From positions 1 to 55,086 of IMG/VR virus record IMGVR_UViG_3300031785_000003: a stretch of DNA of 55,086 nt; one strand, 5' to 3'. This stretch comes from a virus (Duplodnaviria > Caudoviricetes). A model generated the notes under the pieces. That model worked only from the letters and a program-made list of their open reading frames with translations. It made no database searches and had not been told where the DNA came from. Position numbers and translations under genes: made by a program. The stretch's first letter is position 1. Each line of letters begins with the position of its first letter. Shown piece after piece: positions 8,889 through 45,363 of the stretch.

Positions 8889-10759
8889 GGATAATCACGA
8901 TTGACTTTGAAACATATTACAGTCGTGAGTATTCCTTGTCAAAGATGACTACCGAATCCTACATCAGAGACCCTAGATTTGAGGTCATTGGTGTAGGTAT
9001 AAAGGTAGATGACAACCCACCTGATTGGTATAGTGGAGATAATGTCGGAAGGTTCTTGAACTCGTTGGACTATTCTAAAGATGCTATCGTTGCACACAAT
9101 ACTGTGTTTGATGGTGCTATACTATCTTGGATATATGGTATCAAGCCTAAGTTCTGGTTTGATACTTTGTCTATGGCTAGACCATTTCATCATTCAACTG
9201 TGGGGGGTTCTCTTAAGGCTCTGGCAAATCATTATAATCTAGGACAGAAAGGAGATGAAGTTATACAAGCACTTGGTAAGAATCGTAAGGACTTCTCACC
9301 ACAAGAACTTGACAGGTATGCTGACTATTGTTTGCAAGATGTAAACCTAACTTACGAACTGTATAAAAAACTAAAGGTTAGAGTACCAGTATCTGAACTT
9401 ATGATTATAGACCAGACGATTCGTATGTATACTGAACCTAGTATTATGCTAGACCGAAAGGTTCTGGAACAACATCTTCATAAGGTTAGAGAAGACAAGA
9501 AGAAGTTGATTGAATCTCTAGCACTTAAAGGTGTGAGTGAGGAGAGAGTTAAGAAGGCTTTGATGTCTAACCAAATCTTTGCAAAGATACTAGAAACTGT
9601 TGGAGTTGAAGCACCTATGAAGATTAGCCTACGAACAGGTAAAGAAACATATGCGTTTGCTAAAACAGATAAAGAGTTTACTGCTTTATTGGAGCATCCT
9701 AATCCAAAGGTACAAGCCTTAGTCGCAGCACGACTTGGTACGAAGTCTACCATTGAAGAAACTAGAACAGAAAACCTAATTAAAGTTTCAGACAGGGGTA
9801 GTCTACCTATACTATTAAACTACTACGGCGCACATACTGGCAGATTTAGTGGAGGTGATAAACTAAACTTACAAAACCTACCACGAAATGGAGCAATACG
9901 AAAAGCTATCACTGTGCCTGAAGGAAAGATATTGGTTGCTTGTGATTCATCACAGATTGAAGCTCGTATGGTTGCGTACATCGCAGGACAAGATGATTTG
10001 GTGCAAGCGTTCCGTGAAGGTCGTGATGTTTATAGTGAATTTGCTACTGAAGTATATGGTAAACGAGTAACTAAAGCTGACAAGATAGAGAGATTCGTAG
10101 GTAAGACTTGTATACTTGGACTAGGTTATGGCATGGGGCATGTAAAATTTAGAGCCACACTTGCTCTTGGACAAGGAGGTATTGCTGTAGATATAGATGA
10201 GAACGAGGCAAGAAGAATTGTAAACTTATACAGACAAAAGAACCATAAGATAGTATCATTATGGCATAGCTGTGGGCATGCTCTTACAGGTATGATTGCA
10301 GGGTCATCAGGTAATATATGTGAACTATTACCTTATGATAAAGATGGAATAACTTTACCTAATGGACTAAAGATAAAGTACCACGCCTTACGCAATACAT
10401 CTAATGGCTTTGAGTATATAGCTGACGCTAGAACTTTTCGTAAACTTGCACAGAAAAGAATACTGACTGGTGAACAACAGAAGATTGATTGGACTAGAAT
10501 TTATGGTGGTAAAGTTACAGAGAATGTAGTTCAAGCACTAGCTAGGATTGTAGTAGCAGAACAGATGGCGTCTATTGGACAGTCATATCGTGTTGCTTTT
10601 CAGGTACATGATGAAGTGATTATCACGACCAGGGAAAATGATTTGACTAACGCACGACAACTTGTTGAGAAACAAATGTCTACGCCACCAAGCTGGGCAA
10701 AAGACTTGCCTGTTGCATGTGAATCAGGTGTAGGTTATAATTATGGAGACGCAAAGTAA
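8885..10759 (+). CDS. polA: DNA polymerase family A with 3'-5' exonuclease
   Basis: ExoI DFETY, ExoII HNTVFD, ExoIII YCLQD, TGRFSG..NLQN, motif A DSSQIEAR, motif B KTCILGLGYG, motif C VHDE. Confidence 0.95.
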   Translation: MRIITIDFETYYSREYSLSKMTTESYIRDPRFEVIGVGIKVDDNPPDWYSGDNVGRFLNSLDYSKDAIVAHNTVFDGAILSWIYGIKPKFWFDTLSMARPFHHSTVGGSLKALANHYNLGQKGDEVIQALGKNRKDFSPQELDRYADYCLQDVNLTYELYKKLKVRVPVSELMIIDQTIRMYTEPSIMLDRKVLEQHLHKVREDKKKLIESLALKGVSEERVKKALMSNQIFAKILETVGVEAPMKISLRTGKETYAFAKTDKEFTALLEHPNPKVQALVAARLGTKSTIEETRTENLIKVSDRGSLPILLNYYGAHTGRFSGGDKLNLQNLPRNGAIRKAITVPEGKILVACDSSQIEARMVAYIAGQDDLVQAFREGRDVYSEFATEVYGKRVTKADKIERFVGKTCILGLGYGMGHVKFRATLALGQGGIAVDIDENEARRIVNLYRQKNHKIVSLWHSCGHALTGMIAGSSGNICELLPYDKDGITLPNGLKIKYHALRNTSNGFEYIADARTFRKLAQKRILTGEQQKIDWTRIYGGKVTENVVQALARIVVAEQMASIGQSYRVAFQVHDEVIITTRENDLTNARQLVEKQMSTPPSWAKDLPVACESGVGYNYGDAK

Positions 10760-10767
10760 AAGATACT

Positions 10768-11430
10768 ATGGAAAATACAAACTTAACACATTCATTCTCG
10801 TCTATAAAAATGTATGAGAATTGTCCTAAAAGATATTACCACCAGAGAATAACTAAAGAAGTACAAGACACTGGTAGTGATGCCACTATATATGGTGAAC
10901 GAGTACACGAGGCACTTGAACACAGACTAGATAAAAAAGTAGAACTACCTTCCGAATCTAAAACCTATGAACCTTTATGCAAAAGCATAGAGGGATTAGG
11001 TGGAACTTTACAAGTAGAACAGAAGCTGACACTAAGTGAAAACCTTACACCAACAACTTGGTGGGAGAAAGATGCTTGGCTACGGAGCATACTTGATGTC
11101 TTAATTATATTCGAAGATGAGGCTATCGTTATGGATTGGAAGACTGGTAAACGAAGACCTGACTTCTCACAGTTAGAGATGTTTGCACTACAAGTATTTA
11201 GTCATTACCCAAATATTAAAAAGGTCAAGTCAACTTTTGTGTGGCTGAAAGATTTATCATTAGACTCACATACATATAATAGACTAGATGCAGATGACCT
11301 ATGGGTAAAGTTATTATCAAAGACTGAACGCATTAACCAATCATTAACTAACAACAACTGGCCACCTAAACCTAGCGGATTATGTAGGTTTTGTCCTGCA
11401 AAAAATATTTGTGAATTTTCTTTAAATTAA
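10768..11430 (+). CDS. PD-(D/E)XK exonuclease (RecB/Cas4-like)
   Basis: SFSS...CP, G..VH..LE, D....MDWKTGK, QL..F, C-terminal CRFCP...C. Confidence 0.9.
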   Translation: MENTNLTHSFSSIKMYENCPKRYYHQRITKEVQDTGSDATIYGERVHEALEHRLDKKVELPSESKTYEPLCKSIEGLGGTLQVEQKLTLSENLTPTTWWEKDAWLRSILDVLIIFEDEAIVMDWKTGKRRPDFSQLEMFALQVFSHYPNIKKVKSTFVWLKDLSLDSHTYNRLDADDLWVKLLSKTERINQSLTNNNWPPKPSGLCRFCPAKNICEFSLN

Positions 11431-11433
11431 AAC

Positions 11434-11466
11434 TTGACAAGGATGTAAACAATCATTATATATAAT
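11434..11466 (+). promoter_or_regulatory. Sigma70-type promoter P3
   Basis: TTGACA 11434-11439, 17 nt, TATATA 11457-11462 (TATAAT at 11461). Confidence 0.7.
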
Positions 11467-11481
11467 AGTATAGTATATCGA

Positions 11482-11649
11482 GGAGAGTTGTCAATGGGTG
11501 AGGGCGGCTTATGAGATGTGATAATCTGATAGGTCAACTTGCATGGCACGTTCCTAGAGTAATAAAAGATAAGCCCTGTGAGTTATGGCGCAGGTGTCTA
11601 GGCAGGAACTATAACTTCCTGAAGATTGGTTCGAATCCTTTACTCTCCA
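11482..11649 (+). ncRNA. tRNA-like structured RNA with expanded arms
   Basis: Acceptor-type stem GGAGAGT/ACTCTCC+A, GGTTCGAATCC T-loop at the canonical distance from the 3' end, internal helices. Confidence 0.55.
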
Positions 11650-11670
11650 CGCTTTATACTAGGAGATAAG

Positions 11671-11967
11671 ATGAGTACCCCTGAAGGGAAAGTAAAACAG
11701 AAGTTAGACAAGGCATTGAAACAACTTGGTGTATGGTTTTACAGTCCACAAGCAGGGCCTTTTGGTAAAGCAGGCATACCTGATAGGGTAGCCATAGTGA
11801 GAGGAAGATTTGTAGGTATAGAATGCAAGGCTGATAAAAGTAAAAAGCCGACTGCATTACAAACCAAAACAATGAAGGAGATAGAAATGAATGGTGGCAA
11901 ATGTTTTTTAGTTTACGACAACGAAACTATACAAGAAGTTGTATTATATATTGAGGGTGAACAATGA
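11671..11967 (+). CDS. VRR-NUC domain nuclease
   Basis: TPEGKVK, GIPD, IECKA, PTALQ; AGGAG SD. Confidence 0.9.
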   Translation: MSTPEGKVKQKLDKALKQLGVWFYSPQAGPFGKAGIPDRVAIVRGRFVGIECKADKSKKPTALQTKTMKEIEMNGGKCFLVYDNETIQEVVLYIEGEQ

Positions 11968-13514
11968 TTGTTATTGAACAAGCAAAGGCTATTGCTCTTA
12001 AACCAAAGCACCCTAATCAAATATTACAAACAATACCTACGGCCCGTATGTTAAAGTATGACGGAGTAGAACTTGTTGTAGCACCCCACAAACTTGACGA
12101 AGTTAAAGTATTACGGAACTTAGGTTTCGAAGTACCTTCACCAATCTTACATTACTACGACTGGACAGGTCGTTTCACACCATACGAACATCAGAGAATG
12201 ACTTCAGCTTTCCTTACAATGCACAGAAGAGCATTGGTACTTAACGAGATAGGTACTGGTAAAACACAATCAGCATTGTGGGCATCAGATTATCTAATGC
12301 AGATAGGAAAGGTAAAGAAAGTTCTTATCATATCCCCCCTATCTACACTTGAAAGAGTATGGGGTGATAGTATCTTTATGAATTTTCCAAACAGAACATC
12401 AGTAACTTTACACGGAACAAGTGCAAGAAGAAAGAAGTTACTTAAAACACAAGCAGACTTTTATATTATTAACCACGATGGTTTCAATATTATATCTGAT
12501 GAGGCTGTCGATATGTTTGACCTTATTATTGTAGACGAATCTGCTGTGTTAAGAAACCCATCAACAAATAGATTTAGAACGCTCAGGAAGTTTATGGACA
12601 AACATCCTGAAACTCGTTTGTGGTTGATGACTGGCACACCAACTCCTAATGACCCTACTGATGCTTGGGCATTAGCAAAGCTAGTCGATAGTCCATACTG
12701 TACTAAAACATATACTGCTTTCAAAGAGGCTGTGATGATGAAGATAGGACAGTGGAAGTGGATACCCAGACCTGAATCAATAGCAACAGTAAAGCATATT
12801 CTGTATCCTGCTGTTAGATATACAAGAGACGAATGCTTTGACCTACCTGATACAGTCTATCAAACAAGAAAGATAGACCTCACTCCCGAACAGAAAAAAC
12901 ATTACGCAATAATGCTGAAACATTTTGTTACAGAACTTGAACAAGAAGGAACAATCACTGCTGTCAATGAAGCTGTAAAACTACAGAAACTTGTGCAGAT
13001 AAGTTGTGGTGTAGTTTACGGAGATGATGGCAGACACATTCAACTTGATTGTTCGCCACGAGTTAAAGTTATTAAAGAGATTATAGAACAAGTTGGTAAT
13101 AAGGTTATAGTTTTTGTTCCTTTAACTGGAACATTAAATATGTTGGAGAAAGAACTGTCAAAGGATTGGAACGTAGCGGTTGTTAATGGAGAAGTATCTT
13201 CTTCAAAACGAAATGATATATTCCATAACTTTCAGAACGAGAAGAATCCACATGTATTAATTGCTCACCCTGCAACTATGGCACATGGTCTAACTCTTAC
13301 CGCCGCATCTACTATTGTGTGGTATGGGCCAGTGACAAGCAACGAGCAATACATTCAAGCGAATGGCCGTATAGAAAGAATAGGTAAGAAACATGTTTCA
13401 AACATCATACACATTGAGTCAACAGATTTAGAGTATAGGATGTATGAAAGACTAAAGAATAAACAAAAACTACAAGGTCTTTTGTTAGACCTTATACAAC
13501 AGGAAACGAGGTAA
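11964..13514 (+). CDS. SNF2-like SF2 helicase
   Basis: HQ motif, EIGTGKT, IIVDES, MTGTP, HGLTL, QANGRIERIG. Confidence 0.92.
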   Translation: MIVIEQAKAIALKPKHPNQILQTIPTARMLKYDGVELVVAPHKLDEVKVLRNLGFEVPSPILHYYDWTGRFTPYEHQRMTSAFLTMHRRALVLNEIGTGKTQSALWASDYLMQIGKVKKVLIISPLSTLERVWGDSIFMNFPNRTSVTLHGTSARRKKLLKTQADFYIINHDGFNIISDEAVDMFDLIIVDESAVLRNPSTNRFRTLRKFMDKHPETRLWLMTGTPTPNDPTDAWALAKLVDSPYCTKTYTAFKEAVMMKIGQWKWIPRPESIATVKHILYPAVRYTRDECFDLPDTVYQTRKIDLTPEQKKHYAIMLKHFVTELEQEGTITAVNEAVKLQKLVQISCGVVYGDDGRHIQLDCSPRVKVIKEIIEQVGNKVIVFVPLTGTLNMLEKELSKDWNVAVVNGEVSSSKRNDIFHNFQNEKNPHVLIAHPATMAHGLTLTAASTIVWYGPVTSNEQYIQANGRIERIGKKHVSNIIHIESTDLEYRMYERLKNKQKLQGLLLDLIQQETR

Positions 13515-27310: not shown

Positions 27311-29631
27311 TACTTTGTCCTTTTAAATGATTCAGCTGGAGCATCTGAGTTTAAATTAAGAGGGGGCTGTACTGGAATTTCTTTTAGTATTTCTCTTGTT
27401 TTTCCATCAGCTTGTTTTTCTTCTACATAGTCTATTATAAAATATTGTCTTCCTCTTTGTATATAAGGTATTCCGTCTACTTTCTCTAATTTTACTGTGT
27501 TATTTGTTTTAAATTGTTCTTTATAATTTTCAAATATAGCATCTAATCTTTTTAGATAAGCATCGCCTCTTTGTTCTGCAGCTTTTAATTGTATTGCAAG
27601 TTGGTTTTTAAATGTTTCTAAATTCATCTCAGCTGCTAGCGTAGCTTGTGATGCTCTATAGCCTTGGTCAAATGCTAGTCGTAGAGTATCGCTAAGTTGA
27701 CTATAGTCCATAGTTTTATATGGTTTACCTCCAACAGTAACATCATACTTACCATCAGAGCGTGGGTTTATACGAATGTCTAAACCAGAAAATTCTGACC
27801 AGACCATAGCAGCTCTGTTTACACTACCTTTTTGTAAGTCAGATAGTGCTTGCATACCTTGTAACAGCATAATTTTATTTTCAGCTTTCTTAGCTTCTAA
27901 TGCACCTGAGTCACGCATTGTATTAGCTTTTGCCATAAGGTCTGTAGATTGCTTCATTAAATTATTAAATTCAGTTTCATCTCTAGTTATTCGTGCTAGT
28001 CTTCTAAAATAATCTGCACGCTGTGTTAAAACTTGTATGTTTTTATTAGTATTGTTAATTATTAATTCTCTTTCTTCAAGAAAGTTTCTTAACTCAAAAC
28101 CAATTCTACTAGGGTCTTCCATATAAAAAGCAGGAGGTTCTGGTTCTTTTGTGCTTGTAGGAACTTTTTCTTCTGGTGGTTGTTCACCAGTATCAACACC
28201 ACCTGTTTGGTCTATAACTTGAAAAGAACCTTGACCTGTGGTCGTGTTACCTCTGTTATTTGCTACAATAGTTTGATTAGCTGCTGGAGGCGGAGGCCCT
28301 TGTAAACCAGCACCTGTTGTTGTAGTTTGATTAACAGCTGTAGCTGCTGGAGGTTGATTAAGTTTGCCAGCTATATGATTGTAAAGACTTATATATGCTT
28401 GATTGTAGTCACTGTTAGAAATGTTTCCGTCATCTATAGGTAGTGGTTTACCTGCTTGTTGTACTTTATTTGCATTAGCTTGATAGCCTGCACCCCATAA
28501 ATTTTTAGGTAATCCTATAGCTTTATTATAAATAAGCTGAGCAAGACCAGCTACAAGCTCTCCTTCATTACCAGCAGGGCCAGACCTAGCTTTAGCTCTT
28601 TGCATGTTAGAAATCATACCAATAACTTTATCTACCATAGCAGGATTGTTAGGATAGATAGCTTCTATCTGAGCTCTATTTGCTGGATCAGCAAACCATC
28701 TTTTTAAATTGTTAAACTGAGCATTGGTAACTTGCATACTACCAAAAGCACCACGACCACTACCTTTGTTTACACGCCCAAAATCAGACTCGATACCAAA
28801 GATAGCTAATGCTGCAACTGGGTCTATACCCATTTCATTTGCTAGTTCTACAAGTTTTTTAGAATTACTACTATTAAGAATGTCATTATTATCTATAGCA
28901 GTTATACGACCATCTATAAGTTTTTTAGTTCTTTTAGAAGTTTCAGTTATTACTTCTTGTGTGGCTTGAGGTTTTCTATCAGTTTTATATCTTTCCATAA
29001 AACCAAATGGGTCATTTTTTATTTCATCTAAATACTTTGGGTTTTGGTATATAAAATCTTTAAACTCTTTACTGTTGTAAAAAGTATGAGCTTCTCCTTG
29101 CTGTTGAGTAACATTTCTACTTCCTTTACCAGCTTTACGTTTAATACCATACTGTTGAAGAATAGCATTAGTATTATCATCAATAGTTTTTCTTCTGTTT
29201 ATTTCAGCTGTACGTTCAGGACTTGCATTGTTTCTACCTGATCCTTTTGGTAAATCAATTTTATTTGGGTCAACAGCTGGAAATGTTACATTAGGTGTAT
29301 CAACTTTAATATTAGGAGATGGTGGTAAAGTACCATCGTCAACTTTCTGGTCAATCTGTGTATTATCAACAGGTGCTATTTCTTTCTTTTCTTCAGGTGG
29401 AGGTACATCAATATACTGACCACCAAAGTTATCAAGTCTTAAACCTGTAGAACCTTGATCTAAAGCAGTTACTTCAGGTAACTTAGGTGGCCCGCCAGTT
29501 AACTCTCTAAATTTAAGTCTATCAAGTCTATCTTGTTCTGCACGCTGTAATGCCTGTAAATTAAGTTCATCTTGTGCACCTTGTCTAAACGCAGTAGGGT
29601 TTAAATTACCAGCTATATTTCTTAATACCAT
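27310..29631 (-). CDS. Internal virion protein with lytic transglycosylase (SLT-like) domain
   Basis: A.EMGIDP..ALAI..IESDFG...GAFGSMQV matches SLT motifs I and II. Confidence 0.8.
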   Translation of the reverse strand: MVLRNIAGNLNPTAFRQGAQDELNLQALQRAEQDRLDRLKFRELTGGPPKLPEVTALDQGSTGLRLDNFGGQYIDVPPPEEKKEIAPVDNTQIDQKVDDGTLPPSPNIKVDTPNVTFPAVDPNKIDLPKGSGRNNASPERTAEINRRKTIDDNTNAILQQYGIKRKAGKGSRNVTQQQGEAHTFYNSKEFKDFIYQNPKYLDEIKNDPFGFMERYKTDRKPQATQEVITETSKRTKKLIDGRITAIDNNDILNSSNSKKLVELANEMGIDPVAALAIFGIESDFGRVNKGSGRGAFGSMQVTNAQFNNLKRWFADPANRAQIEAIYPNNPAMVDKVIGMISNMQRAKARSGPAGNEGELVAGLAQLIYNKAIGLPKNLWGAGYQANANKVQQAGKPLPIDDGNISNSDYNQAYISLYNHIAGKLNQPPAATAVNQTTTTGAGLQGPPPPAANQTIVANNRGNTTTGQGSFQVIDQTGGVDTGEQPPEEKVPTSTKEPEPPAFYMEDPSRIGFELRNFLEERELIINNTNKNIQVLTQRADYFRRLARITRDETEFNNLMKQSTDLMAKANTMRDSGALEAKKAENKIMLLQGMQALSDLQKGSVNRAAMVWSEFSGLDIRINPRSDGKYDVTVGGKPYKTMDYSQLSDTLRLAFDQGYRASQATLAAEMNLETFKNQLAIQLKAAEQRGDAYLKRLDAIFENYKEQFKTNNTVKLEKVDGIPYIQRGRQYFIIDYVEEKQADGKTREILKEIPVQPPLNLNSDAPAESFKRTK

Positions 29632-35015: not shown

Positions 35016-35530
35016 TAATCATCTACCATTTCTAAAGCAACTTCTGTTACATCATTATTTCTATTAGTCCAACCATTTCCAAATGTATCAAAAGTATCTA
35101 GGCTTTTATAAAAATCTTGTCTTACTTGTTTAAATTTTTCTACCATATATCTTTTGTTTTGTCCTTCTAATAACGCTAATGTTTTAGGGCCAATTATACC
35201 ATCAGGTTCTGCTCCACAACATTTTTGTAATCCTTTAGAACTTCTACTTACTCCGCTGTTTACTGCCCAATCAAAAACTATATAGTCTATACCAGAAGGT
35301 AAAAAATCACATCTAGCTTTTTCCCAATAATTTTCTAGGTATATTGGAGCAACATCTTCTGGTGTAAGTTTTTTCATATCTTCTTCAGTAACCTCGTGGC
35401 CTACCCAATCTTCATATACTTTTTTAGTAACTCCAAGATTAGTTATACCTCCGGGATCACTAGGATGATTTACATATCCCCCTTCATGTTTTAATAAAAG
35501 CTCTAATGCTTTATCAAAATTTTCTTTCAT
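35015..35530 (-). CDS. Endolysin, glycoside hydrolase family 108 with peptidoglycan-binding domain
   Basis: HEGGYVNHPSDPGGITNLGVT, FDWAVNSG, DGIIGPKT, FGNGWTNR. Confidence 0.95.
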   Translation of the reverse strand: MKENFDKALELLLKHEGGYVNHPSDPGGITNLGVTKKVYEDWVGHEVTEEDMKKLTPEDVAPIYLENYWEKARCDFLPSGIDYIVFDWAVNSGVSRSSKGLQKCCGAEPDGIIGPKTLALLEGQNKRYMVEKFKQVRQDFYKSLDTFDTFGNGWTNRNNDVTEVALEMVDD

Positions 35531-35907
35531 TTTTTAGTATCCGTTTTTTTGTATTTGTCAAAACTTCTCAATCCTGAAATTCCTAGCATACCGAATAAAA
35601 GCGGCATCATGACTGTCATGTCAGCCTGAGGAATTACAATACCAAACCCTGCCATAATTGGTGAAACCATATAGTTAATAGCAAGCGACAGCCCGCAAAT
35701 CCAACCAATTAGGGGGCGCCACGATGATTGAAACCAGTTACCTTTTGCTTCTGCTTTGTTAACTTCTATTTGTTGAAGGGCAAGTTGCTGGGCATGTTTC
35801 TCTGCCATAGTGGCTATGTCGTGGCTCAACTTTTGTTGTAAGTCTTTGTCTTTAACAAACTTACCAATTAACTTTGTTGCTGGGCCTATAAGTGCTGTTA
35901 GTGCCAT
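35527..35907 (-). CDS. Holin (3TM, GTA-holin-like)
   Basis: WRPLIGW, GMLGISGLRSFDK; adjacent to endolysin. Confidence 0.85.
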   Translation of the reverse strand: MALTALIGPATKLIGKFVKDKDLQQKLSHDIATMAEKHAQQLALQQIEVNKAEAKGNWFQSSWRPLIGWICGLSLAINYMVSPIMAGFGIVIPQADMTVMMPLLFGMLGISGLRSFDKYKKTDTKK

Positions 35908-38948: not shown

Positions 38949-39584
38949 TTATCTAATATAGTTTTGAACCGTGCTATCACTAGTCCACCTATTTATTCTA
39001 TTTATAGTTTTTACTGAGCCATCGCTATTTAATTCATCTGTATACAATGTTTTAAACGCAGCCATATCTTTAGCGTTAGTAATTGCTGTTTCTATCGCAG
39101 CACAATCTGTTCGTATGCTTTCAACATATTTTTTTACTGCATCAGGAATTGCTTTACTACTATCATAAATACTGCGTTCTACTAACCAATTAAATCTAGC
39201 TATATAATTATTAGCAGTTATTTTACATTGATTTTTAGCTATTGTTTTCAGACCATAATTAATTACCTTGTTACCATCATCGTCTAATATATTTTTACCA
39301 TCACTATCTTTAGCTTCAGCATCATCTAATGCTTTATCAGTAGTAGTGTATTTTGTAGTAACTTTTTTATTAGCTTTGCTAAATGTGTATGTAGGTTGAC
39401 TTGTTATTTCAAACCTATCATCACCTTTTGTTCCTGCCTCTACAGTATAAATACCTATGGTATTTAATTCTGACCAAGTCCAAGATGTAAATATTCTTCG
39501 AGAATGTCTAACATCATCTATAACCATATCTTTGGGTCTAGCAATTATCTCCTCTATTTTATTATCTTTTATATATGCCCACAT
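38949..39584 (-). CDS. Tail-fibre-associated protein
   Basis: 211 aa, AAGGAGGTG SD, follows the lectin-like fibre genes. Confidence 0.75.
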   Translation of the reverse strand: MWAYIKDNKIEEIIARPKDMVIDDVRHSRRIFTSWTWSELNTIGIYTVEAGTKGDDRFEITSQPTYTFSKANKKVTTKYTTTDKALDDAEAKDSDGKNILDDDGNKVINYGLKTIAKNQCKITANNYIARFNWLVERSIYDSSKAIPDAVKKYVESIRTDCAAIETAITNAKDMAAFKTLYTDELNSDGSVKTINRINRWTSDSTVQNYIR

Positions 39585-39596
39585 ATTATCACCTCC

Positions 39597-41372
39597 TTAA
39601 AAAGCGTTGCTATATTTTGCTGGTACATCTGCCCATGCAGCATAAATTATTGTAGTTCCACTTGGATTTTGACTAGCACTTGTACTACGCATCTTGAATC
39701 CGTTACTTAAAAAATCAACCAAATTACTTCCAGTTTGTGCAGCACTGTCATTCCATTGTAAAAAATTACCCATTACATTGTGAGGACTTCTAGCTGAATC
39801 ATATACAAATAAACTATCAGTGCCTGTATATCTTCGTATCATTATCATTTTGGGCTTGAACCCAGTATAGATAAAAGTCCCATCAGCATTTCCGTTGCCA
39901 ACATAAGAACCGAACTTACTGAACCCTGGAATTGAAGTCCACGCCATAAACAAAAAGGTATGACCATTAGTATTTAAGCCATCAGTATAATTAGTATCAA
40001 AAGTAGTTGCATTAGGTGCTGACATATTACCATTATGAGATTTACTTGTTTCTGCTCCTGTTGTTTCAACTTGTAAAACGTGATCTTCACTAGACAAAGA
40101 AACGTGTCTTAAAATTCTTTGACTGTTACCATCAGACCTAAAACTTATTATCATCTCTGGTGCTTTACCCAAACCATGTCCTACTGTAGCTGTGCCTGAA
40201 CCAGATAAATTTCCTGTATAAGTTCCTGTGCTAAAACCTATATCAGCATTTACTTGTATTGTTGAAGTTCTATCTCCATCATTGTTGGTTGTGGTAGTTG
40301 CACCTTTAGCTCTCCAACACCACGCAACATAAGTTCTTCCGTTATCGTTAGGCCCACTTCCGCTTGAGCCCAAAGTAAAACCATCAGTATCAAAACTTGA
40401 AATCATAGGATTATTATTGCCTTGTGCCGTATCACTAATACGAGAAGTTGTATCCATCTGAAACATATATGGAGTAGGTGTTGGACTTCTACTATTTAAA
40501 ACTTGTGAATGAAATACTTGATTGTTTTGTGAATGACTACTACACTTTGCCCAGATGACATCAGGCTTGAATCCTAATCCTGTTATTGCTTGTCCTGTTG
40601 TTGAATTACCTGTGTAAGTTACAATACCAAATTGCTTGCCCCCAACATAATCGTCATTAGTTTGTGCTGGGTCAATATCAGAATCAATAAATAAGTTTTT
40701 GGTATTTAACGCAAGAAAGCCAGCAGGAACGGAGTAATAAAAATTTCCGTCACCGTTCTCATCTGTATTATTTTGAGCAGTCAAAGTTCCAGAAAAATCT
40801 CCATTTTGTCCAAAATTCATAATACATCTGCCAGTATTAGTTGACCTATTATGTAAAACTCCTATAGGTGCACCTGCATAAGTTGATATAGTGCCAGATG
40901 GATTAGTGCCATTAGCTGGATCACCTACTCCACTACCTACATTAAAAAATTCTTGAGAACCTCCTAGCCATACTTTTCCATTACTACAATCCCAAGCCAT
41001 TCTTAAAACTTCATTACCAGAAATTCCAGGAGCTGAAGAATAATTTCCGCCAATATTTACTTGTGTGTTACCTTGAAGTATATAAGTATAATAATAAATT
41101 ATTGCATTATTATGTTTAGTTGTATTAATAGCTAAAGAATCATAATTACCAATACCACAAACTGTTGAACCTCCACCAGAGCTACCATAATTAACAAACT
41201 CTGCATAATATTTACCTGTGCTTCCACCAAATCCTGCTAAAGTCATTCTTGACCAAACACTACTAGACCAAAAACTTCCTGATTCTACTTCTAAATTTCC
41301 ATTTACATGAGTTAAACTTTGCCCTGTATTTACTAAAGGATTAAAAGTTGGATAATTTCCACTACTTGTCAT
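39597..41372 (-). CDS. Tail fibre / receptor-binding protein (SPRY/ConA-like plus repeated YTGN modules)
   Basis: GKYYAEF, NFGQ, YTGN..T...ITGLGFKPD, HGLGKAP, FSKFGSYVGNG. Confidence 0.85.
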   Translation of the reverse strand: MTSSGNYPTFNPLVNTGQSLTHVNGNLEVESGSFWSSSVWSRMTLAGFGGSTGKYYAEFVNYGSSGGGSTVCGIGNYDSLAINTTKHNNAIIYYYTYILQGNTQVNIGGNYSSAPGISGNEVLRMAWDCSNGKVWLGGSQEFFNVGSGVGDPANGTNPSGTISTYAGAPIGVLHNRSTNTGRCIMNFGQNGDFSGTLTAQNNTDENGDGNFYYSVPAGFLALNTKNLFIDSDIDPAQTNDDYVGGKQFGIVTYTGNSTTGQAITGLGFKPDVIWAKCSSHSQNNQVFHSQVLNSRSPTPTPYMFQMDTTSRISDTAQGNNNPMISSFDTDGFTLGSSGSGPNDNGRTYVAWCWRAKGATTTTNNDGDRTSTIQVNADIGFSTGTYTGNLSGSGTATVGHGLGKAPEMIISFRSDGNSQRILRHVSLSSEDHVLQVETTGAETSKSHNGNMSAPNATTFDTNYTDGLNTNGHTFLFMAWTSIPGFSKFGSYVGNGNADGTFIYTGFKPKMIMIRRYTGTDSLFVYDSARSPHNVMGNFLQWNDSAAQTGSNLVDFLSNGFKMRSTSASQNPSGTTIIYAAWADVPAKYSNAF

Positions 41373-41374
41373 AA

Positions 41375-42193
41375 TTAACTCCCAAATGTTGGACTATCAA
41401 TAACTTGATGGTCTGCGCCGAGTCCGTTAATTGTATTAAAATCATTATTGTTGCCACTCGAATCATTTCCAAAATTGCTTGTATCTTCAAACTTTAAATG
41501 AAAACCATTATTTCCAAAAGCTGTACCACTTGGGTCTTTTGGAATCCACACACCATTTTTTGTTTCGCCAAACTGTGTAGGAGCATATGCTGTTCCATCA
41601 ACCCAAATCCATTCTGCAAAATACATATCTGTTCCATTAACTGCATGACCAGCTGGTTCTTTTGCACCTATAATAAAATTAGTTGTGTTCCAATGAATTA
41701 AATCTTCATTTAAACCAACATTACTTGTAGTAAAACCACTAATTTGAGTGCCATTTACATAAAAAATAAGTCTATCAGATTGTGTACTTTGTGTAGAATC
41801 AAATTTTATAACCATATGATACCAAGCTGTGGGGTCACGATATACTCCATCTGAACGACCAGCATCTAAATTGTGCATATTTGCTGCACTTAGTTTCATA
41901 TTATTAGGATCATTCTGTTGAGTTTCAAAAAACATATATCCTCCAGCACCACCACTTGTACCAGCTGCAAAATGTACATGCATTGCTGTATTATTATGTG
42001 ATAAATCTCCATGCATTTTAAACCAATAACTCCAAGTTCCTTTTTTTAAACTTGTAGGTGTACCTAATGATGATTTAAAAAGGTAAGAATTCTCAGATTC
42101 AGTAAATCTACAACTTTGTTCGATTTGATAAGGATAAAATCCACTACCAGAACTACTTCCTGGATTTTGAAAAAATTCACCTTGTAACGGCAT
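41375..42193 (-). CDS. LamG/concanavalin-A-like tail protein
   Basis: RDPTAWYH, YVNG, FG.NGFHLKF...DSSGNNN. Confidence 0.85.
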   Translation of the reverse strand: MPLQGEFFQNPGSSSGSGFYPYQIEQSCRFTESENSYLFKSSLGTPTSLKKGTWSYWFKMHGDLSHNNTAMHVHFAAGTSGGAGGYMFFETQQNDPNNMKLSAANMHNLDAGRSDGVYRDPTAWYHMVIKFDSTQSTQSDRLIFYVNGTQISGFTTSNVGLNEDLIHWNTTNFIIGAKEPAGHAVNGTDMYFAEWIWVDGTAYAPTQFGETKNGVWIPKDPSGTAFGNNGFHLKFEDTSNFGNDSSGNNNDFNTINGLGADHQVIDSPTFGS

Positions 42194-42205
42194 TACTTAT
42201 GTCTC

Positions 42206-42880
42206 CTATGCAAATGCAAGTTGTGGTGCTCCTAGTTGTATTGACCCAGAAGCCTTAACAAAATATGGTATGACATCGACTGCATTAGCAGCTGTTGATA
42301 TAGTTAAACCAGCACCACCTGCTGTTTCATAATCTGTACCAAGACTTAATGTTCTACTTCCTGTACCATCTTGTATAAATACTATAATACCAGATTGCCC
42401 CACTGACTCCGTGCTTGGATTAGCTAAGGTAACATTACCTGTTGCAGTCAGCACAAAATGCTGATAGGTATCAAAATCTAATGTAACACTGCCTGTCTGT
42501 GACCCAGCTGTTTGTGTACTACCTCTTTGTGCTTTAGTAAATGTACTGTTAGTATTTGTAAACACTATATCAGAAGGTGTAATTAACTCACCGAGTCCTG
42601 CTGCTGTTATACGAAGTTCAATTCTATCTCCAGATGAAAAAGACCTAGCTGACGTACTTTCTTGTGCTCTAGTAACTGTAAGAACATCTGTACTTCTTCC
42701 AGTAACTTTTACAATTTCAAGATTATTAGAAGAGTCAATTAGAGTTGCGAAAAAAAATTCGGCACCCGCTAGAGATGGAAAACGAGCTCCGTGACCACTT
42801 GCAACAGTAATACTTGTAGCACTAGTATTTATACCAGAAGCTAAAGTAGAATGGGCGTTGTTTGCAAATTTTATACTCAT
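42206..42880 (-). CDS. Tail fibre protein A (anchor paralogous to fibre B)
   Basis: N-terminal ~95 aa alignable to 37800..38933; IQDGTGSRTL C-terminal domain. Confidence 0.85.
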   Translation of the reverse strand: MSIKFANNAHSTLASGINTSATSITVASGHGARFPSLAGAEFFFATLIDSSNNLEIVKVTGRSTDVLTVTRAQESTSARSFSSGDRIELRITAAGLGELITPSDIVFTNTNSTFTKAQRGSTQTAGSQTGSVTLDFDTYQHFVLTATGNVTLANPSTESVGQSGIIVFIQDGTGSRTLSLGTDYETAGGAGLTISTAANAVDVIPYFVKASGSIQLGAPQLAFA

Positions 42881-42890
42881 ATTTAACTCC

Positions 42891-43331
42891 TTAGTTTACC
42901 GATACAGTCCAAGTAATACCTAATGTATCAGCTGATGCTTTGTTAATAACCGAAAAAACTGTTCTACATAATAATGTACCGCTTGAACTTGCATTAAATA
43001 TTCCAGCTTCTGTAAGTGCTCCTGTTCCTGTACCCGCAGGAAATGTTGCAACATAAGCTACATCATTGTTAGTTACAGTGGTAGAAGTAAGTGCTACTCT
43101 ACCTGCTTCAGAACCTAAAGCTGTATTTCCTGCAGCTGCAGCAGTACTACCTGTACCAATAGCCATATGACTCATGGCTGTTGCAGATGCATCTTTCATC
43201 CTTGACGCTATGTAACTTTTACCTGTTGTAACAACAAGGTTAGGTATAATTACCTCATGTTTTACATTTCCGTCAGGGCGTGTAAGAGTAAGTTTTAACT
43301 CACCCGTAACCTTAATAGAATCGTTTATCAT
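42891..43331 (-). CDS. Tail structural protein
   Basis: NLVVTTG, MAIGTG, TEAGIFN, ITWT. Confidence 0.8.
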   Translation of the reverse strand: MINDSIKVTGELKLTLTRPDGNVKHEVIIPNLVVTTGKSYIASRMKDASATAMSHMAIGTGSTAAAAGNTALGSEAGRVALTSTTVTNNDVAYVATFPAGTGTGALTEAGIFNASSSGTLLCRTVFSVINKASADTLGITWTVSVN

Positions 43332-43349
43332 TTATCCATCTCCTTTATT

Positions 43350-44678
43350 TTAATGTGATCCTGCTCCCATTGGTGTTTCATTAAAGAAATGCCCGTTCAC
43401 CGCATGAGAACCTGTTGTTGGTGAATCACTGGTATCAGTATATATAAAATTAACTAATAGTCCAGCATTTGTTAATTCACCATAAGTTATTGTATCAGAG
43501 TTTACAATAGGTTGTCCAATATATCCATCGCCACCTATCAAACCTGTAAACTCTTGAACACCATTGCTATCAGAAGTATCATCTAATATTACTGTGCTAT
43601 TTAATAAACTATCATCGTTTGAAATTTGTCCAGAAAAATCTAAAACTCTAAGCCTAAATAAATCTTGGTTAAACACTCTATTATAGTGTCGCACTGTATC
43701 TGAAGCACCCCCTAAAAACTTTTCATTAACTGCACTAAAACCTTCGTTAAGCAAAAATGATACGTCTGCTACCCTAGATACTTCGTTACTATTTCCTATA
43801 TGAAACCCTCTAACTTTACCTGTTTCTGCTCCATCAAATGCTGAAATTCTAGTTGGATATAATCTAGTCGTATCTCCTAATGTTAATGTCGTAGCTATAC
43901 TTTCTACAGCACTAACAGTATCTGTAGGATTTATTCCTATAGTAAATGGCCCAAATGAATCAGCCATAGTAATACTATCTGTAGAAATTCTATCTGGTTG
44001 TAATACTGGAGAATCAGAAGCAGTTACAGAATCAGTTTTACCTGCTGGTGTTACAGTCATTGCAGGTACATCACTTGCAGCCACAGTACTAGTTTTAGTA
44101 TTACCTGTATTTGCTTCGTTAATAATCTCTGTAATACTTACACTATCAGTTGGATTTAACCCTATAGTAAATGGCCCAAACGAGTCAGCCATAGTAATAC
44201 TATTTGAAAAACCTTTGTTTGGTACTATAAATGGAGAATCAGAAGCAGTTACAGAATCAGTTTTACCTGCTGGTGTTACAGTCATTGCAGGTGCATCAGA
44301 AATACTAATCGGGTCTGGATCAACATCAGAATCAGATAAATCAAAATCTATACTAGAATTAATAATTTTATTTGGTGTATCTGTTACATTAACTGAATCA
44401 GTCCTAACAATATCAACAGCCATAACAGGTGTATCAGAAACAGTTATTGAATCACCAGGTACTTTAGTTATTTCTAATACAAAACTAGAATCAGTTACAG
44501 ATACTGAATCGTCTGCTAATGATCTTGTAGGTACAATTTCAGTTGTAAAACTAATACTTCTAGCAGGAGCTGCAGCGTATGTTAAATTGGTAAATGTATT
44601 AGAAGCTGATATACTGTTTGCTACAGTTGTAAGAGATAGTAAAGTTACTGCGGCATATGTAAATTTTATATTAGCCAT
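43350..44678 (-). CDS. S/T/D-rich repeat tail protein
   Basis: Many 'DSV.V.D' units plus a 75-aa tandem duplication. Confidence 0.8.
   Translation of the reverse strand: MANIKFTYAAVTLLSLTTVANSISASNTFTNLTYAAAPARSISFTTEIVPTRSLADDSVSVTDSSFVLEITKVPGDSITVSDTPVMAVDIVRTDSVNVTDTPNKIINSSIDFDLSDSDVDPDPISISDAPAMTVTPAGKTDSVTASDSPFIVPNKGFSNSITMADSFGPFTIGLNPTDSVSITEIINEANTGNTKTSTVAASDVPAMTVTPAGKTDSVTASDSPVLQPDRISTDSITMADSFGPFTIGINPTDTVSAVESIATTLTLGDTTRLYPTRISAFDGAETGKVRGFHIGNSNEVSRVADVSFLLNEGFSAVNEKFLGGASDTVRHYNRVFNQDLFRLRVLDFSGQISNDDSLLNSTVILDDTSDSNGVQEFTGLIGGDGYIGQPIVNSDTITYGELTNAGLLVNFIYTDTSDSPTTGSHAVNGHFFNETPMGAGSH
43936..44292. repeat. 225-bp-period intragenic duplication
   Basis: 61 bp identical at 44007-44067 and 44232-44292; 43936 aligns with 44161. 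Confidence 0.9.
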
Positions 44679-45355: not shown

Positions 45356-45363
45356 AAATTACC

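What the first reader, a model, noticed from the sequence alone, without database searches (positions are those of the whole stretch)
11434..11660. Promoter-driven ~168-nt tRNA-shaped RNA with expanded arms and a possible pseudoknot
Seen: after a TTGACA promoter, GGAGAGT (11482-88) pairs with ACTCTCC (11642-48) plus an unpaired A. GG-TTCGAAT-CC sits where a T-loop belongs, though the T-stem has two T-T mismatches. A mini D-arm TCA-ATGGG-TGA follows the 5' strand. The anticodon-arm position holds GGCTTAT/ATAAGCC (11506-12/11569-75) closing 56 nt. The variable region holds hairpin CAGGAA/TTCCTG, whose loop CTATAAC can pair with AGTTATGG (11581-88). It is about twice tRNA length, lacks the G3-U70 pair of tmRNA and has no encoded CCA after the discriminator. 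Inference: a tRNA mimic, such as a decoy for anticodon nucleases, an RNase P/Z processing signal for the downstream operon, or an interrupted tRNA.
Basis: partly seen in the sequence, partly recalled or inferred. Interest (0 to 1): 0.8.

Follow-up and report, generated by a model that had tools for sequence, protein, structure and literature searches.

The report
Phage tRNA look-alike with sealed anticodon
Some marine phages carry a 168-base RNA folded like a tRNA whose anticodon loop is locked by pairing with another loop of the same molecule, so it imitates a tRNA but almost certainly cannot read codons; its job is unknown.

Summary
Window 11482-11649 (+) is one member of a conserved structured-RNA family. 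I found 31 distinct full-length sequences in marine viral and metagenome contigs.

On a 30-sequence alignment, a 55-pair model is 95.1% paired, against 35-52% for slid controls. Twenty-five pairs change on both sides.

The fold has:
- a 7-bp acceptor stem that covaries, and an unpaired A after it;
- a canonical T-loop;
- a 4-bp D-like stem whose loop holds a long hairpin;
- a hairpin at the anticodon-arm position.

The 7-nt loop of that hairpin pairs with the loop of a second hairpin. It covaries (GUA/CUA/AUA with matching partners), even between RNAs that are otherwise identical.

It is therefore a non-decoding tRNA mimic. It is not an interrupted tRNA, and the 52-codon ORF is open in only 4 of 31 sequences. 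Rfam has no match.

In this phage lineage the RNA is a recent insertion: 75 of 78 related loci have only a 16-53 nt gap. An unrelated phage group also carries it, and that group shares tail-fibre and holin genes with this phage.

The closest design is phage T4 RNA C, whose function is unknown. The function here is inferred, not shown.

The parts
11434..11466 (+). Promoter-like motif TTGACA-N4-TGTAAA...TATATAAT, ancestral to the locus
   Evidence: The same motif sits in the short nuclease-to-endonuclease gaps of relatives that lack the RNA. The strict sigma-70 scan does not list TTGACA-N17-TATATA because the second hexamer lacks T at position 6.
11467..11481 (+). 5' leader of the inserted segment (15 nt); base -1 is A
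   Evidence: Insertion boundary from comparison with L003 and other relatives. Base -1 is U in 24 of 31 family members and A in the 4 window-type members.
11482..11488 (+). P1 5' strand (acceptor stem), GGAGAGU
   Evidence: Pairs with 11642-48. 7 pairs, 100% paired in 30 sequences; 2 pairs change on both sides (A-U to G-C at pairs 3 and 5).
11489..11492 (+). P2 5' strand (D-stem-like), UGUC, pairs with GGCA 11545-48
   Evidence: 4 pairs, 100% paired, 3 with changes on both sides. Recovered independently by RNAalifold.
11495..11498 (+). UGGG, a D-loop-like GG (two G invariant)
   Evidence: Invariant G16 and G17 in alignment A1. A role as G18/G19 analogue contacting the T-loop is inferred from tRNA knowledge.
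11498..11542 (+). Hairpin domain inserted in the D-like loop: H1 (11498-502 / 11538-42), H1b (11506-17 / 11524-35, one G.G mismatch), apical loop GUGAUA 11518-23
   Evidence: Helices 3-5 are 92-97.5% paired; 11 of 14 pairs change on both sides. The window-type H1 pairing is read with a one-column shift (direct reading). In L083 a G-to-U change turns the G.G mismatch into G.U.
11545..11548 (+). P2 3' strand, GGCA
   Evidence: helix 2.
11553..11558 (+). Helix X 5' strand, CCUAGA, pairs with UCUAGG 11597-602
   Evidence: 6 pairs, 100% paired, 3 with changes on both sides (helix 6).
11559..11573 (+). Unpaired A-rich strand GUAAUAAAAGAUAAG; 14 of 15 bases invariant
   Evidence: Invariant columns G78-A91 in A1. 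Note that the search patterns required this block, so its invariance is partly by selection.
11575..11594 (+). Hairpin K: stem CCUGUG/CGCAGG, loop AGUUAUGG 11581-88
   Evidence: 6 pairs, 99.4% paired, 3 with changes on both sides (helix 7).
11597..11602 (+). Helix X 3' strand, UCUAGG
   Evidence: helix 6.
11603..11621 (+). Hairpin at the anticodon-arm position: stem CAGGAA/UUCCUG, 7-nt loop CUAUAAC 11609-15
   Evidence: 6 pairs, 100% paired; the outer pair is U-A in 22 and C-G in 8 sequences (helix 9). ARAGORN reads the loop as anticodon AUA.
11582..11615 (+). Loop-loop (kissing) pairing GUUAUGG 11582-88 with CUAUAAC 11609-15
   Evidence: 7 pairs, 100% paired in 30 sequences. The pair at anticodon position 34 is U-A in 17, G-C in 7 and C-G in 6. 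The pair at position 32 is G-C in 24 and A-U in 6 (helix 8). The swaps occur between RNAs with 0-1 other differences.
11625..11641 (+). T arm: stem AUUGG/CCUUU with two U.U mismatches, loop UUCGAAU 11630-36
   Evidence: helix 10: 3 invariant pairs and 2 U.U positions. L088 turns one U.U into A-U. RNAalifold prefers an alternative 4-bp GAUU/AAUC pairing here. Two natural variants (L088, L102) break that alternative but not the T arm.
11642..11649 (+). P1 3' strand ACUCUCC plus unpaired A (discriminator position)
   Evidence: No encoded CCA in 0 of 31 members.
11650..11670 (+). Trailer of the inserted segment, carrying AGGAG (11661-65) for the downstream gene
11511..11669 (+). 52-codon ORF overlapping the RNA; not conserved
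   Evidence: Open only in the 4 window-type sequences of 31. Elsewhere the longest overlapping ORFs are 14-44 codons at other places.
10768..11430 (+). Upstream gene: PD-(D/E)XK (Cas4-like) exonuclease
   Evidence: PF12705 at 1.6e-15; PHROG 69 exonuclease.
11671..11967 (+).
   Evidence: No Pfam hit at E<=0.01. PHROG 93 endonuclease at 1.8e-18.

Best explanation
SHOWN. Window 11482-11649 encodes, on the + strand, a member of a conserved ~165-183-nt structured RNA family of marine phages. The fold is tRNA-shaped:
- a 7-bp acceptor stem followed by an unpaired A;
- a T arm with the canonical UUCGAAU loop;
- a 4-bp D-like stem whose loop keeps the GG and carries a ~45-nt hairpin domain.

A further domain (helix X, an invariant A-rich strand and hairpin K) is inserted where tRNA position 26 would be. 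It folds back so that the K loop pairs with all 7 bases of the loop of the hairpin at the anticodon-arm position.

INFERRED. Because that loop is sealed, the RNA does not decode. Because it keeps the parts that tRNA-processing enzymes recognise, it is probably cut out of the phage transcript by host RNase P at G11482. It would then be trimmed after A11649, given a CCA end and accumulate as a stable small RNA.

MOST LIKELY ACTION. It works in trans as a tRNA look-alike. It would occupy or divert a host factor that recognises the acceptor/T-arm half of tRNAs. Candidates are a tRNA-targeting defence or toxin, or a tRNA-processing or charging enzyme. The sealed anticodon and the tandem U.U pairs in the T stem would keep it out of translation. 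It behaves as an exchangeable, host-specific accessory gene rather than a core phage function.

The confidence given (0.45) is for the whole mechanism. The structural part alone I hold at about 0.95.
For: Structure:
- 55-pair model, 95.1% of 1650 cells paired. 0 of 500 shuffles reach this. Slid controls give 35.2-51.8%. 25 pairs change on both sides, against 2-5 in slid controls.
- RNAalifold, run without my model, recovers P1, P2, H1b, X, K, the anticodon-position hairpin and part of H1 (3 of its 5 pairs).
- U.G and G.U pairs in P2, H1, H1b and the kissing helix fit only the + strand.

Sealed loop:
- All 7 loop-loop pairs form in 30 of 30 sequences, and the K and anticodon-like loops read as complementary in the 28 of 31 distinct sequences where both were parsed.
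- L092 (G-C) and L122 (U-A) differ nowhere else. L108 (C-G) differs from each at 1 position.

Not a decoder:
- The Rfam tRNA model finds nothing even at E<=10.
- ARAGORN of 31.
- TAG ends 24% of long ORFs in loci with a CUA loop, against 25% and 24% in the GUA and AUA loci.

tRNA-enzyme features:
- G1-C72, an unpaired A and the T-loop are conserved.
- U at -1 in 24 of 31.

Accessory and exchangeable:
- 75 of 78 related loci have a 16-53 nt gap. Only L002 has the RNA.
- The CM finds no copy in 14 relatives searched.
- The other carrier group is unrelated except for tail-fibre genes (39-59% identity) and a holin (52%).
- No phage protein is shared near the RNA.
- Neither the window nor G001 has an ordinary tRNA gene.

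More than a cutting signal: the extra domains and unpaired blocks (GUGAUA loop, 14-nt A-rich strand) are conserved.

Weak expression hint: contigs from 4 RNA libraries lie on 11495-11781.
Against: - No RNA ends, CCA addition or abundance could be seen. The RNA-library contigs are low depth, may be DNA carry-over, and three of them run on across 11649 into the next gene.
- No binding partner is identified.
- The T stem has two U.U mismatches, and RNAalifold prefers another local pairing there.
- There are no spacer bases between the acceptor and D-like stems, so the three-dimensional tRNA likeness is unproven.
- In the second phage group a 10-12 bp leader-trailer helix extends the acceptor stem (z -3.2 to -7.3 in 24 of 25 flank sets). 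The 'ends' may therefore stay paired inside the mRNA, which suits a cis role.
- The invariance of the A-rich block is partly forced by my search patterns.
- Changes concentrate at the pair corresponding to anticodon position 34. A purely structural helix does not explain that.
Confidence: 0.45

Rival explanations
1. Cis-acting punctuation element. The tRNA-shaped fold exists only to make host RNase P and 3'-processing enzymes cut the polycistronic phage message at this point, and perhaps to protect the new ends. The excised RNA itself has no further role.
For: - It lies inside transcription units in both contexts: between a promoter-like motif and the endonuclease gene here, and 5 nt after a 53-codon ORF in the other group.
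- The leader-trailer helix in the second group overlaps a hairpin at the upstream ORF's stop codon. That hairpin could cap the upstream mRNA after cleavage.
- RNA-library contigs bridge the 3' end into the next gene.
- Earlier scan notes read several shorter phage tRNA mimics this way.
Against: - A cutting signal needs only an acceptor/T-arm minihelix. Here ~100 extra nucleotides, a 7-bp kissing pair and invariant unpaired blocks are conserved.
- 75 of 78 relatives express the same gene pair without it.
- The leader-trailer helix is not significant in the window-type copies (z -0.5 to -1.3).
Confidence: 0.25
2. Masked decoding tRNA. It is a real Tyr or stop-suppressor tRNA for the UAN codon box, and its anticodon is hidden by hairpin K until the extra domain is opened or removed.
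For: - The loop has tRNA form: Y32-U33-N34-U35-A36-A37-C38.
- Only position 34 varies (A, G, C), always with its partner, even between otherwise identical RNAs.
- G1-C72 and A73 match what I recall of bacterial tRNA-Tyr identity.
Against: - The seal is kept in 30 of 30 sequences.
- There is no sign of TAG read-through in loci with a CUA loop.
- A34 is the commonest state (18 of 31) and is unusual for a decoder.
- Tandem U.U pairs sit in the T-stem pairs that, as I recall, tune EF-Tu binding.
- No known bacterial mechanism removes inserts at these positions.
- tRNA models reject it.
Confidence: 0.07
3. Miniature tmRNA-like ribosome-rescue RNA: a tRNA-like domain plus a pseudoknot and a short tag frame ending in UAAUAA.
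For: - It has an acceptor/T-arm domain with a D-loop-like GG and a pseudoknot.
- A short frame ends in the invariant UAAUAA (direct reading..HRPFLE**).
- Marine phages do carry tmRNA genes (PMC9004378, passages read).
Against: - No G3-U70: the pair is A-U or G-C in 30 of 30.
- ARAGORN in tmRNA mode finds nothing.
- No Rfam tmRNA family matches at E<=10.
- The putative frame lies almost wholly inside covarying helices, and its upstream part changes with them.
- A local hairpin, not a long P2 helix, precedes the T arm.
Confidence: 0.03
4. Small protein gene (the 52-codon ORF 11511-11669), or a decaying tRNA gene or attachment-site remnant with no RNA function.
For: - The ORF is open in the window and its 3 closest relatives, and GAGG sits 8-11 nt before the ATG.
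- 3 of the 5 substitutions between the window and L083 are synonymous (direct reading).
- The same slot holds a small-ORF insert in L057 and L073.
Against: - The frame is broken in 27 of 31 family sequences.
- Conservation follows base pairing, with 25 compensated pairs. A decaying gene or an attachment-site core would not show this.
Confidence: 0.02

Closest known systems
Phage T4 RNA C (species 1 RNA, rnaC; NC_000866 70908-71046)
   Same: - It is a phage-encoded small stable RNA with a canonical T arm (CCGGG-UUCGAAU-CCCGG) and an acceptor-like closing helix with two U.U pairs.
- A hairpin just before the T arm has loop CGUCAA, which is complementary to UUUGACG in an upstream hairpin.
- Both motifs are invariant in 5 Tevenvirinae homologues.
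- Function unknown (passages in PMC3014915 and PMC9697503).
   Different: - No detectable sequence homology: the family model scores it 14 bits, mostly on the T arm.
- It is 139 nt with a different arrangement of inner helices.
- It lies in a tRNA gene cluster of a large myovirus.
- Its loop-loop pairing shows no covariation, so it is untested. Here it is proven by covariation.
Canonical tRNA, specifically tRNA-Tyr (Rfam RF00005)
   Same: - 7-bp acceptor stem, unpaired A at position 73, T-loop, GG in the D-like loop.
- A 6-bp hairpin with a 7-nt loop of the form CU-NUA-AC, placed 4 nt before the T stem.
- ARAGORN labels the window copy tRNA-Tyr(AUA).
   Different: - 165-183 nt long.
- No bases 8-9.
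- The D loop and position 26 carry large structured inserts.
- The anticodon loop is fully paired in cis.
- Not accepted by the Rfam model.
tRNA-like domain of tmRNA
   Same: An acceptor/T-arm module with a D-loop analogue, joined to a pseudoknotted body. It does not decode through an anticodon.
   Different: No G3-U70, no credible tag frame, half the size, and a different topology before the T arm. No hit with ARAGORN -m or Rfam.
tRNA-like processing modules (mascRNA of MALAT1, plant-mitochondrial t-elements); recalled, and named in earlier scan notes
   Same: tRNA-shaped folds embedded in longer transcripts that recruit RNase P or RNase Z.
   Different: Those are minimal (about 45-60 nt) and lack conserved extra domains. 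Cleavage here is untested.
Candidate structured RNA 'DNAVirus_1423' of Fremin et al. 2023 (PMC10690425, section 2.3 read)
   Same: An IMG/VR-derived candidate RNA that overlaps ARAGORN tRNA-Tyr calls 'only sometimes'. That matches this family's behaviour: 4 of 31 are called tRNA-Tyr.
   Different: Identity cannot be checked. The sequence and coordinates are in a supplementary table and a figure that I could not open. The paper assigns no structure details or function in the text I read.

Membership tests
tRNA (Rfam RF00005) | Scores above the family threshold with the covariance model | tested here: not met
   No match at gathering score over the whole window or at E<=10 over 11380-11720. ARAGORN gives a weak call with a 5-of-7 acceptor stem, in 4 of 31 members only.
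tRNA (Rfam RF00005) | 7-bp acceptor stem with an unpaired discriminator, and a T arm with a T-loop | tested here: met
   Acceptor stem 100% paired with 2 compensated pairs. T-loop UUCGAAU is conserved. The T stem has two U.U mismatches.
tRNA (Rfam RF00005) | Free 7-nt anticodon loop available for codon pairing | tested here: not met
   All 7 loop bases pair with the loop of hairpin K in 30 of 30 sequences, with covariation.
tRNA (Rfam RF00005) | Aminoacylation and CCA 3' end | not testable with these tools
   CCA is not encoded in any of 31 members. Charging needs an experiment.
tmRNA | G3-U70 alanine identity pair | tested here: not met
   Pair 3-70 is A-U in 26 and G-C in 4 of 30.
tmRNA | Recognised by tmRNA detectors or models, and carries a tag reading frame | tested here: not met
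   ARAGORN -m finds nothing. No Rfam tmRNA family matches at E<=10. The only frame ending at UAAUAA lies inside helices.
T4 RNA C-like phage tRNA mimics | Acceptor-like closing helix, T arm, and a hairpin at the anticodon position whose loop is complementary to an upstream loop | tested here: met
   Present in both: this family and T4 rnaC.
T4 RNA C-like phage tRNA mimics | Sequence or profile homology to rnaC | tested here: not met
   Model R1 scores rnaC at 14.1 bits, aligned mainly on the T arm.
Bacterial Y RNA (YrlA) tRNA-like module | Rfam model match; the 5'/3' ends form the Ro-binding stem at the anticodon side (architecture recalled) | tested here: not met
   No Rfam match of any family at E<=10 apart from three chance-level hits. 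Here the ends close the acceptor stem.
RNase P/Z processing module (t-element, mascRNA-like) | Cleavage by RNase P at the 5' end of the acceptor stem | not testable with these tools
   Only indirect evidence: U at -1 in 24 of 31. Contig data show no ends.

The most novel reading that the evidence does not exclude
The RNA is a tRNA body with its own built-in 'codon'. The anticodon is pre-paired in cis, so the molecule presents a finished codon-anticodon helix.

It could then act on the translation machinery without mRNA, as an RNA-only counterpart of tmRNA-SmpB or a ribosome or elongation-factor trap. Alternatively it could be switched open to decode the UAN box.

The concerted swaps of the position-34 pair (A, G, C) between otherwise identical RNAs would then reflect selection on anticodon identity, not just on helix stability.
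Probability: 0.07. Interest if true: 0.9.

Novelty: new variant of a known kind. Interest (0 to 1): 0.66.

Why it matters
Phage T4's tRNA-like 'RNA C' has had no known function for about fifty years, and it has too little sequence variation to prove its fold. This marine family has the same design: a tRNA top half plus an anticodon-position loop paired to a second loop. It also has enough natural variation to establish every helix and the loop-loop contact by covariation.

That gives a concrete, testable structural model for a class of phage tRNA mimics that cannot decode. It also shows that such an RNA gene moves as a ~200-nt cassette between unrelated phages that share host-recognition genes, which points to a host-directed role.

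If the target is a tRNA-directed defence or a tRNA-handling enzyme, this would be a new type of RNA-based counter-measure. The fold itself, a tRNA braced by a domain that caps its anticodon, is also of interest for RNA structure and for tRNA-scaffold engineering.

Tried and rejected
- **DNA similarity to cultured phages.** blastn of 10400-12600 found no match. By protein, the polymerase is only 38% identical to Rhizobium and Pseudomonas phages, so no annotated relative could be used.
- **Prokaryote genomes.** The pattern scan of genome contigs gave 2 stretches, both chance matches (L131, L132). No prophage or host copy was found with that strict pattern.
- **False and partial hits.** L098 (a real tRNA next to a chance motif), L109, L115, L131 and L132 are false hits. 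L102 and L116 are 5'-truncated members. All seven were left out of the 31 distinct sequences. L105 (contains N) is among the 31 but was left out of alignment A1.
- **Antisense target.** The complement of the invariant A-rich strand occurs 7 times in the window at <=3 mismatches, against 5.9 expected. No target is suggested.
- **RNA libraries.** Only single low-depth contigs were found. They give no 5' or 3' ends, no strand and no CCA. Uncovered parts mean nothing.
- **Amber recoding in CUA-type loci.** No difference in TAG use.
- **Model-based realignment.** Alignment A2 did not repair the one-column shift of the window-type rows in H1. I read that helix directly.
Counted and not supported. 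However, the four pairs UUAU/AUAA are nearly invariant, so an alternative contact cannot be excluded.
- **Shared partner protein.** Of 238 window ORFs searched against 30 type-2 loci, none is shared near the RNA.
- **Earlier scan notes.** Nothing by place or by sequence.
- **Literature.** Searches for a described family found only the Fremin et al. catalogue entry.
- **Not attempted.** Removing the two inserts in silico to score the remainder as a tRNA.
Full report
**1. What is in the window**

The window is a complete 55,086-bp uncultured virus record. The finding lies between a PD-(D/E)XK exonuclease gene (10768-11430; PF12705) and a 98-codon endonuclease gene (11671-11967; PHROG 93). This is a replication module that also holds a family-A DNA polymerase and an SNF2 helicase.

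ARAGORN makes one weak call in the whole window, tRNA-Tyr(AUA) at 11577-11650, using a 5-of-7 acceptor stem. Rfam finds nothing at gathering score in the window. At E<=10 in 11380-11720 it finds only three chance-level hits. The minimum-energy fold of 11482-11649 is only modestly better than shuffles (z -2.45), so the single sequence cannot settle the matter.

**2. The element is an insertion in this lineage**

The exonuclease protein recovered 80 related viral loci. Of the 78 related loci that hold both flanking genes, 75 have a gap of 16-53 nt. One (L002, 98% identical protein) has the same 238-nt gap as the window. Two (L057, L073) have a different insert that encodes a small Cys-rich ORF.

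blastn of the 237-nt region hits only the window itself and L002 among the 81 loci. The short gaps keep the motif TTGACA-N4-TGTAAA...TATAAT directly before the ATG. The roughly 200-nt segment was inserted downstream of it and brings its own AGGAG for the next gene.

**3. A family elsewhere**

Exact and gapped pattern scans gave 6 and 8 viral stretches, 41 metagenome stretches and 2 prokaryote stretches. After sorting:
- 45 loci hold the full element, with 31 distinct sequences;
- 2 are 5'-truncated members;
- 5 are false hits, including both prokaryote stretches.

Five loci are in the window's context. The rest are in an unrelated phage group ('type 2'). There the RNA follows a 53-codon ORF inside a run of small early-type ORFs.

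One type-2 record (G001, 46 kb, 77% complete) has one copy and no ordinary tRNA gene. The window also has none. The window and G001 share only tail-fibre genes (39-59% identity), a holin (52%) and a few weak or short protein matches. This suggests a common or related host and exchange of the RNA as a cassette.

All samples named in the run listing are marine.

**4. Structure**

On a 30-sequence MAFFT alignment (A1) I wrote a 55-pair model including one pseudoknot. Results:
- 95.1% of 1650 cells pair. The shuffle mean is 86.7%, and 0 of 500 shuffles reach the observed value. Slid controls give 35.2-51.8%.
- 25 pairs change on both sides, against 2-5 in slid controls.

RNAalifold, run blind to my model, predicts 46 pairs, 22 of them compensated. 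It recovers P1, P2, H1b, X, K, the anticodon-position hairpin and part of H1 (3 of its 5 pairs).

In window coordinates the helices are:

| Helix | 5' strand | 3' strand | Notes |
|---|---|---|---|
| P1 (acceptor) | 11482-88 | 11642-48 | Pairs 3 and 5 switch A-U to G-C |
| P2 | 11489-92 | 11545-48 | 4 bp, D-stem-like |
| H1 | 11498-502 | 11538-42 | Inside the P2 loop |
| H1b | 11506-17 | 11524-35 | Apical loop GUGAUA 11518-23 |
| X | 11553-58 | 11597-602 | |
| K | 11575-80 | 11589-94 | Loop 11581-88 |
| Anticodon-position hairpin | 11603-08 | 11616-21 | Loop 11609-15 |
| T arm | 11625-29 | 11637-41 | Loop UUCGAAU 11630-36 |

The P2 loop keeps an invariant GG (11496-98). An invariant A-rich strand lies at 11559-73. 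A11649 is unpaired.

The T stem has two conserved U.U mismatches. RNAalifold prefers a local 4-bp alternative there. Two natural variants (L088, L102) fit the T arm and break the alternative.

Wobble pairs fit only the + strand.

The GGCTTAT/ATAAGCC helix is 80% paired; the two proposals together score 64.1%, no better than their slid controls.

**5. The sealed loop**

The K loop and the anticodon-like loop are complementary over 7 bases in every member:
- GUUAUAG / CUAUAAC
- GUUACAG / CUGUAAC
- GUUAGAG / CUCUAAC
- GUUAUAA / UUAUAAC
- GUUAUGG / CUAUAAC in the window, with one G.U

L092 and L122 differ only at this pair. L108 differs from each at one further position. The 'anticodon' (AUA in 18, GUA in 6 and CUA in 7 of 31 sequences) is therefore one strand of an intramolecular helix.

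Loci with CUA use TAG as a stop as often as the others: 24% against 25% and 24%. I conclude that the RNA does not decode.

Why changes concentrate at the position-34 pair is unexplained. A short gene-conversion tract could move both bases together, since they lie 25 nt apart.

**6. The ORF**

The 52-codon frame is open in only the 4 window-type sequences of 31. Elsewhere the longest overlapping frames are 14-44 codons, at other positions. Conservation follows base pairing, not codons.

**7. Flanks**

In type 2, a 10-12 bp leader-trailer helix extends the acceptor stem. RNAduplex z is -3.2 to -7.3 in 24 of 25 flank sets. Changes are compensated, and there is a conserved U.G. Its 5' strand overlaps a hairpin that spans the upstream ORF's stop codon. 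That hairpin is not a canonical terminator on this strand.

In the window type, the corresponding pairing (UAGUAUA/UAUACUA) is not significant (z -0.5 to -1.3).

Base -1 is U in 24 of 31. No member encodes CCA.

**8. Expression**

Contigs from four RNA libraries of four studies lie on the element or its 3' flank:
- 11495-11645
- 11509-11659
- 11510-11722
- 11625-11775
- 11631-11781

Three of them continue into the next gene. Depth is low, DNA carry-over is possible, and contigs show no ends. This is a weak hint of co-transcription at most.

**9. Comparison with known RNAs**

An earlier scan note (e1-6035235) pointed to phage T4 RNA C. I fetched it.

T4 RNA C has a canonical T arm and an acceptor-like helix with two U.U pairs. 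The hairpin before its T arm has loop CGUCAA, complementary to UUUGACG upstream. Both motifs are invariant in five Tevenvirinae homologues, so that pairing cannot be tested by covariation.

My family model scores rnaC at 14 bits, mostly on the T arm. The design is the same, but there is no demonstrable homology. Two papers state that the roles of RNA C and RNA D are unknown (PMC3014915 and PMC9697503, passages read).

tmRNA membership fails: no G3-U70, and no detector hit.

Fremin et al. 2023 (PMC10690425; abstract, section 2.3 and passages read) list a candidate RNA, DNAVirus_1423, that 'only sometimes' overlaps ARAGORN tRNA-Tyr calls. This family behaves the same way: 4 of 31 are called. A text search finds that name in no other paper.

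**10. Reading**

Shown: a conserved, tRNA-shaped, non-coding RNA with a cis-sealed anticodon-like loop. It is patchily distributed and shared between unrelated phages that have similar host-recognition genes.

Inferred:
- It matures through the host tRNA-processing enzymes.
- It acts as a non-decoding tRNA look-alike on a host tRNA-binding factor (about 0.45).
- The main rival is a pure processing signal (0.25). That rival does not explain the conserved extra domains.
- Masked decoder (0.07), tmRNA-like rescue RNA (0.03) and ORF or remnant (0.02) are minor.

It is a new variant of a known but unexplained kind, the phage tRNA mimics of the T4 RNA C type. It is the best-supported structural example I know of from these searches.

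Noticed in passing
window 11434-11466, and L003-L081 just downstream of the exonuclease stop: The motif TTGACA-N4-TGTAAA...TATAAT is conserved. In most relatives its TATAAT abuts or overlaps the ATG of the endonuclease gene. A sigma-70 start 7 nt downstream would miss the start codon. The motif may therefore drive a leaderless message or be something other than a promoter. Only one other near-copy exists in the window, at 509-524.
   Followed up: partly
L057 3667-3839 and L073 3667-3791: The same intergenic slot holds a different insert in two relatives. It has a strong AGGAG site and a small Cys-rich ORF (MLKNI.VKE.CNKWCNCHTCF...). The slot seems to be a hot spot for accessory cassettes.
   Followed up: no
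alignment A1 columns 122/147 (window 11586 and 11611): The loop-loop pair at 'anticodon position 34' is U-A, G-C or C-G in RNAs that differ at 0-1 other positions. A-U was not seen in 31 sequences. This may reflect diversifying selection or short-tract recombination. It is unexplained.
   Followed up: partly
type-2 loci, e.g. L093 4575-4600 and 4768-4795 (minus strand): A 10-12 bp leader-trailer helix (AUAGCCUUUAUA / UAUAAGGGCUAU, covarying) brackets the RNA. It competes with a hairpin that contains the stop codon of the upstream 53-codon ORF.
   Followed up: partly
window 38949-42880 and 35527-35907 (minus strand), against G001 41470-45852 and 27714-28103: Tail-fibre genes (39-59% identity) and a holin (52%) are essentially the only genes the window phage shares with the unrelated type-2 phage G001.
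   Followed up: partly
L133 1109-1247 (T4 rnaC) and alignment A3: T4 RNA C has complementary loops UUUGACG and CGUCAA. Both are invariant even in Kosakonia phage 305, where the surrounding stems differ. In two relatives the RNA sits between tRNA-Trp and tRNA-Gly, and part of it is annotated as tRNA-Met in phage PG7.
   Followed up: partly
family consensus, window 11538-11564: A short frame runs into the invariant UAAUAA..HRPFLE** in type 2 and VNLHGTFLE** in the window. The helix-X changes CUA/UUA/UUG are all Leu in this frame. This is probably coincidence, because the frame lies inside helices.
   Followed up: partly
L105 about 1020-1055: A window-type copy from a 62.8-kb metagenome contig has scattered N in the H1b hairpin region. 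This may be an assembly consensus over co-existing variants of that hairpin.
   Followed up: no
L002 4847-4939 (minus strand): ARAGORN calls a 93-nt tRNA-Ile(AAU) on the strand opposite the SNF2 helicase gene. It is likely a false positive in an AT-rich coding sequence.
   Followed up: no
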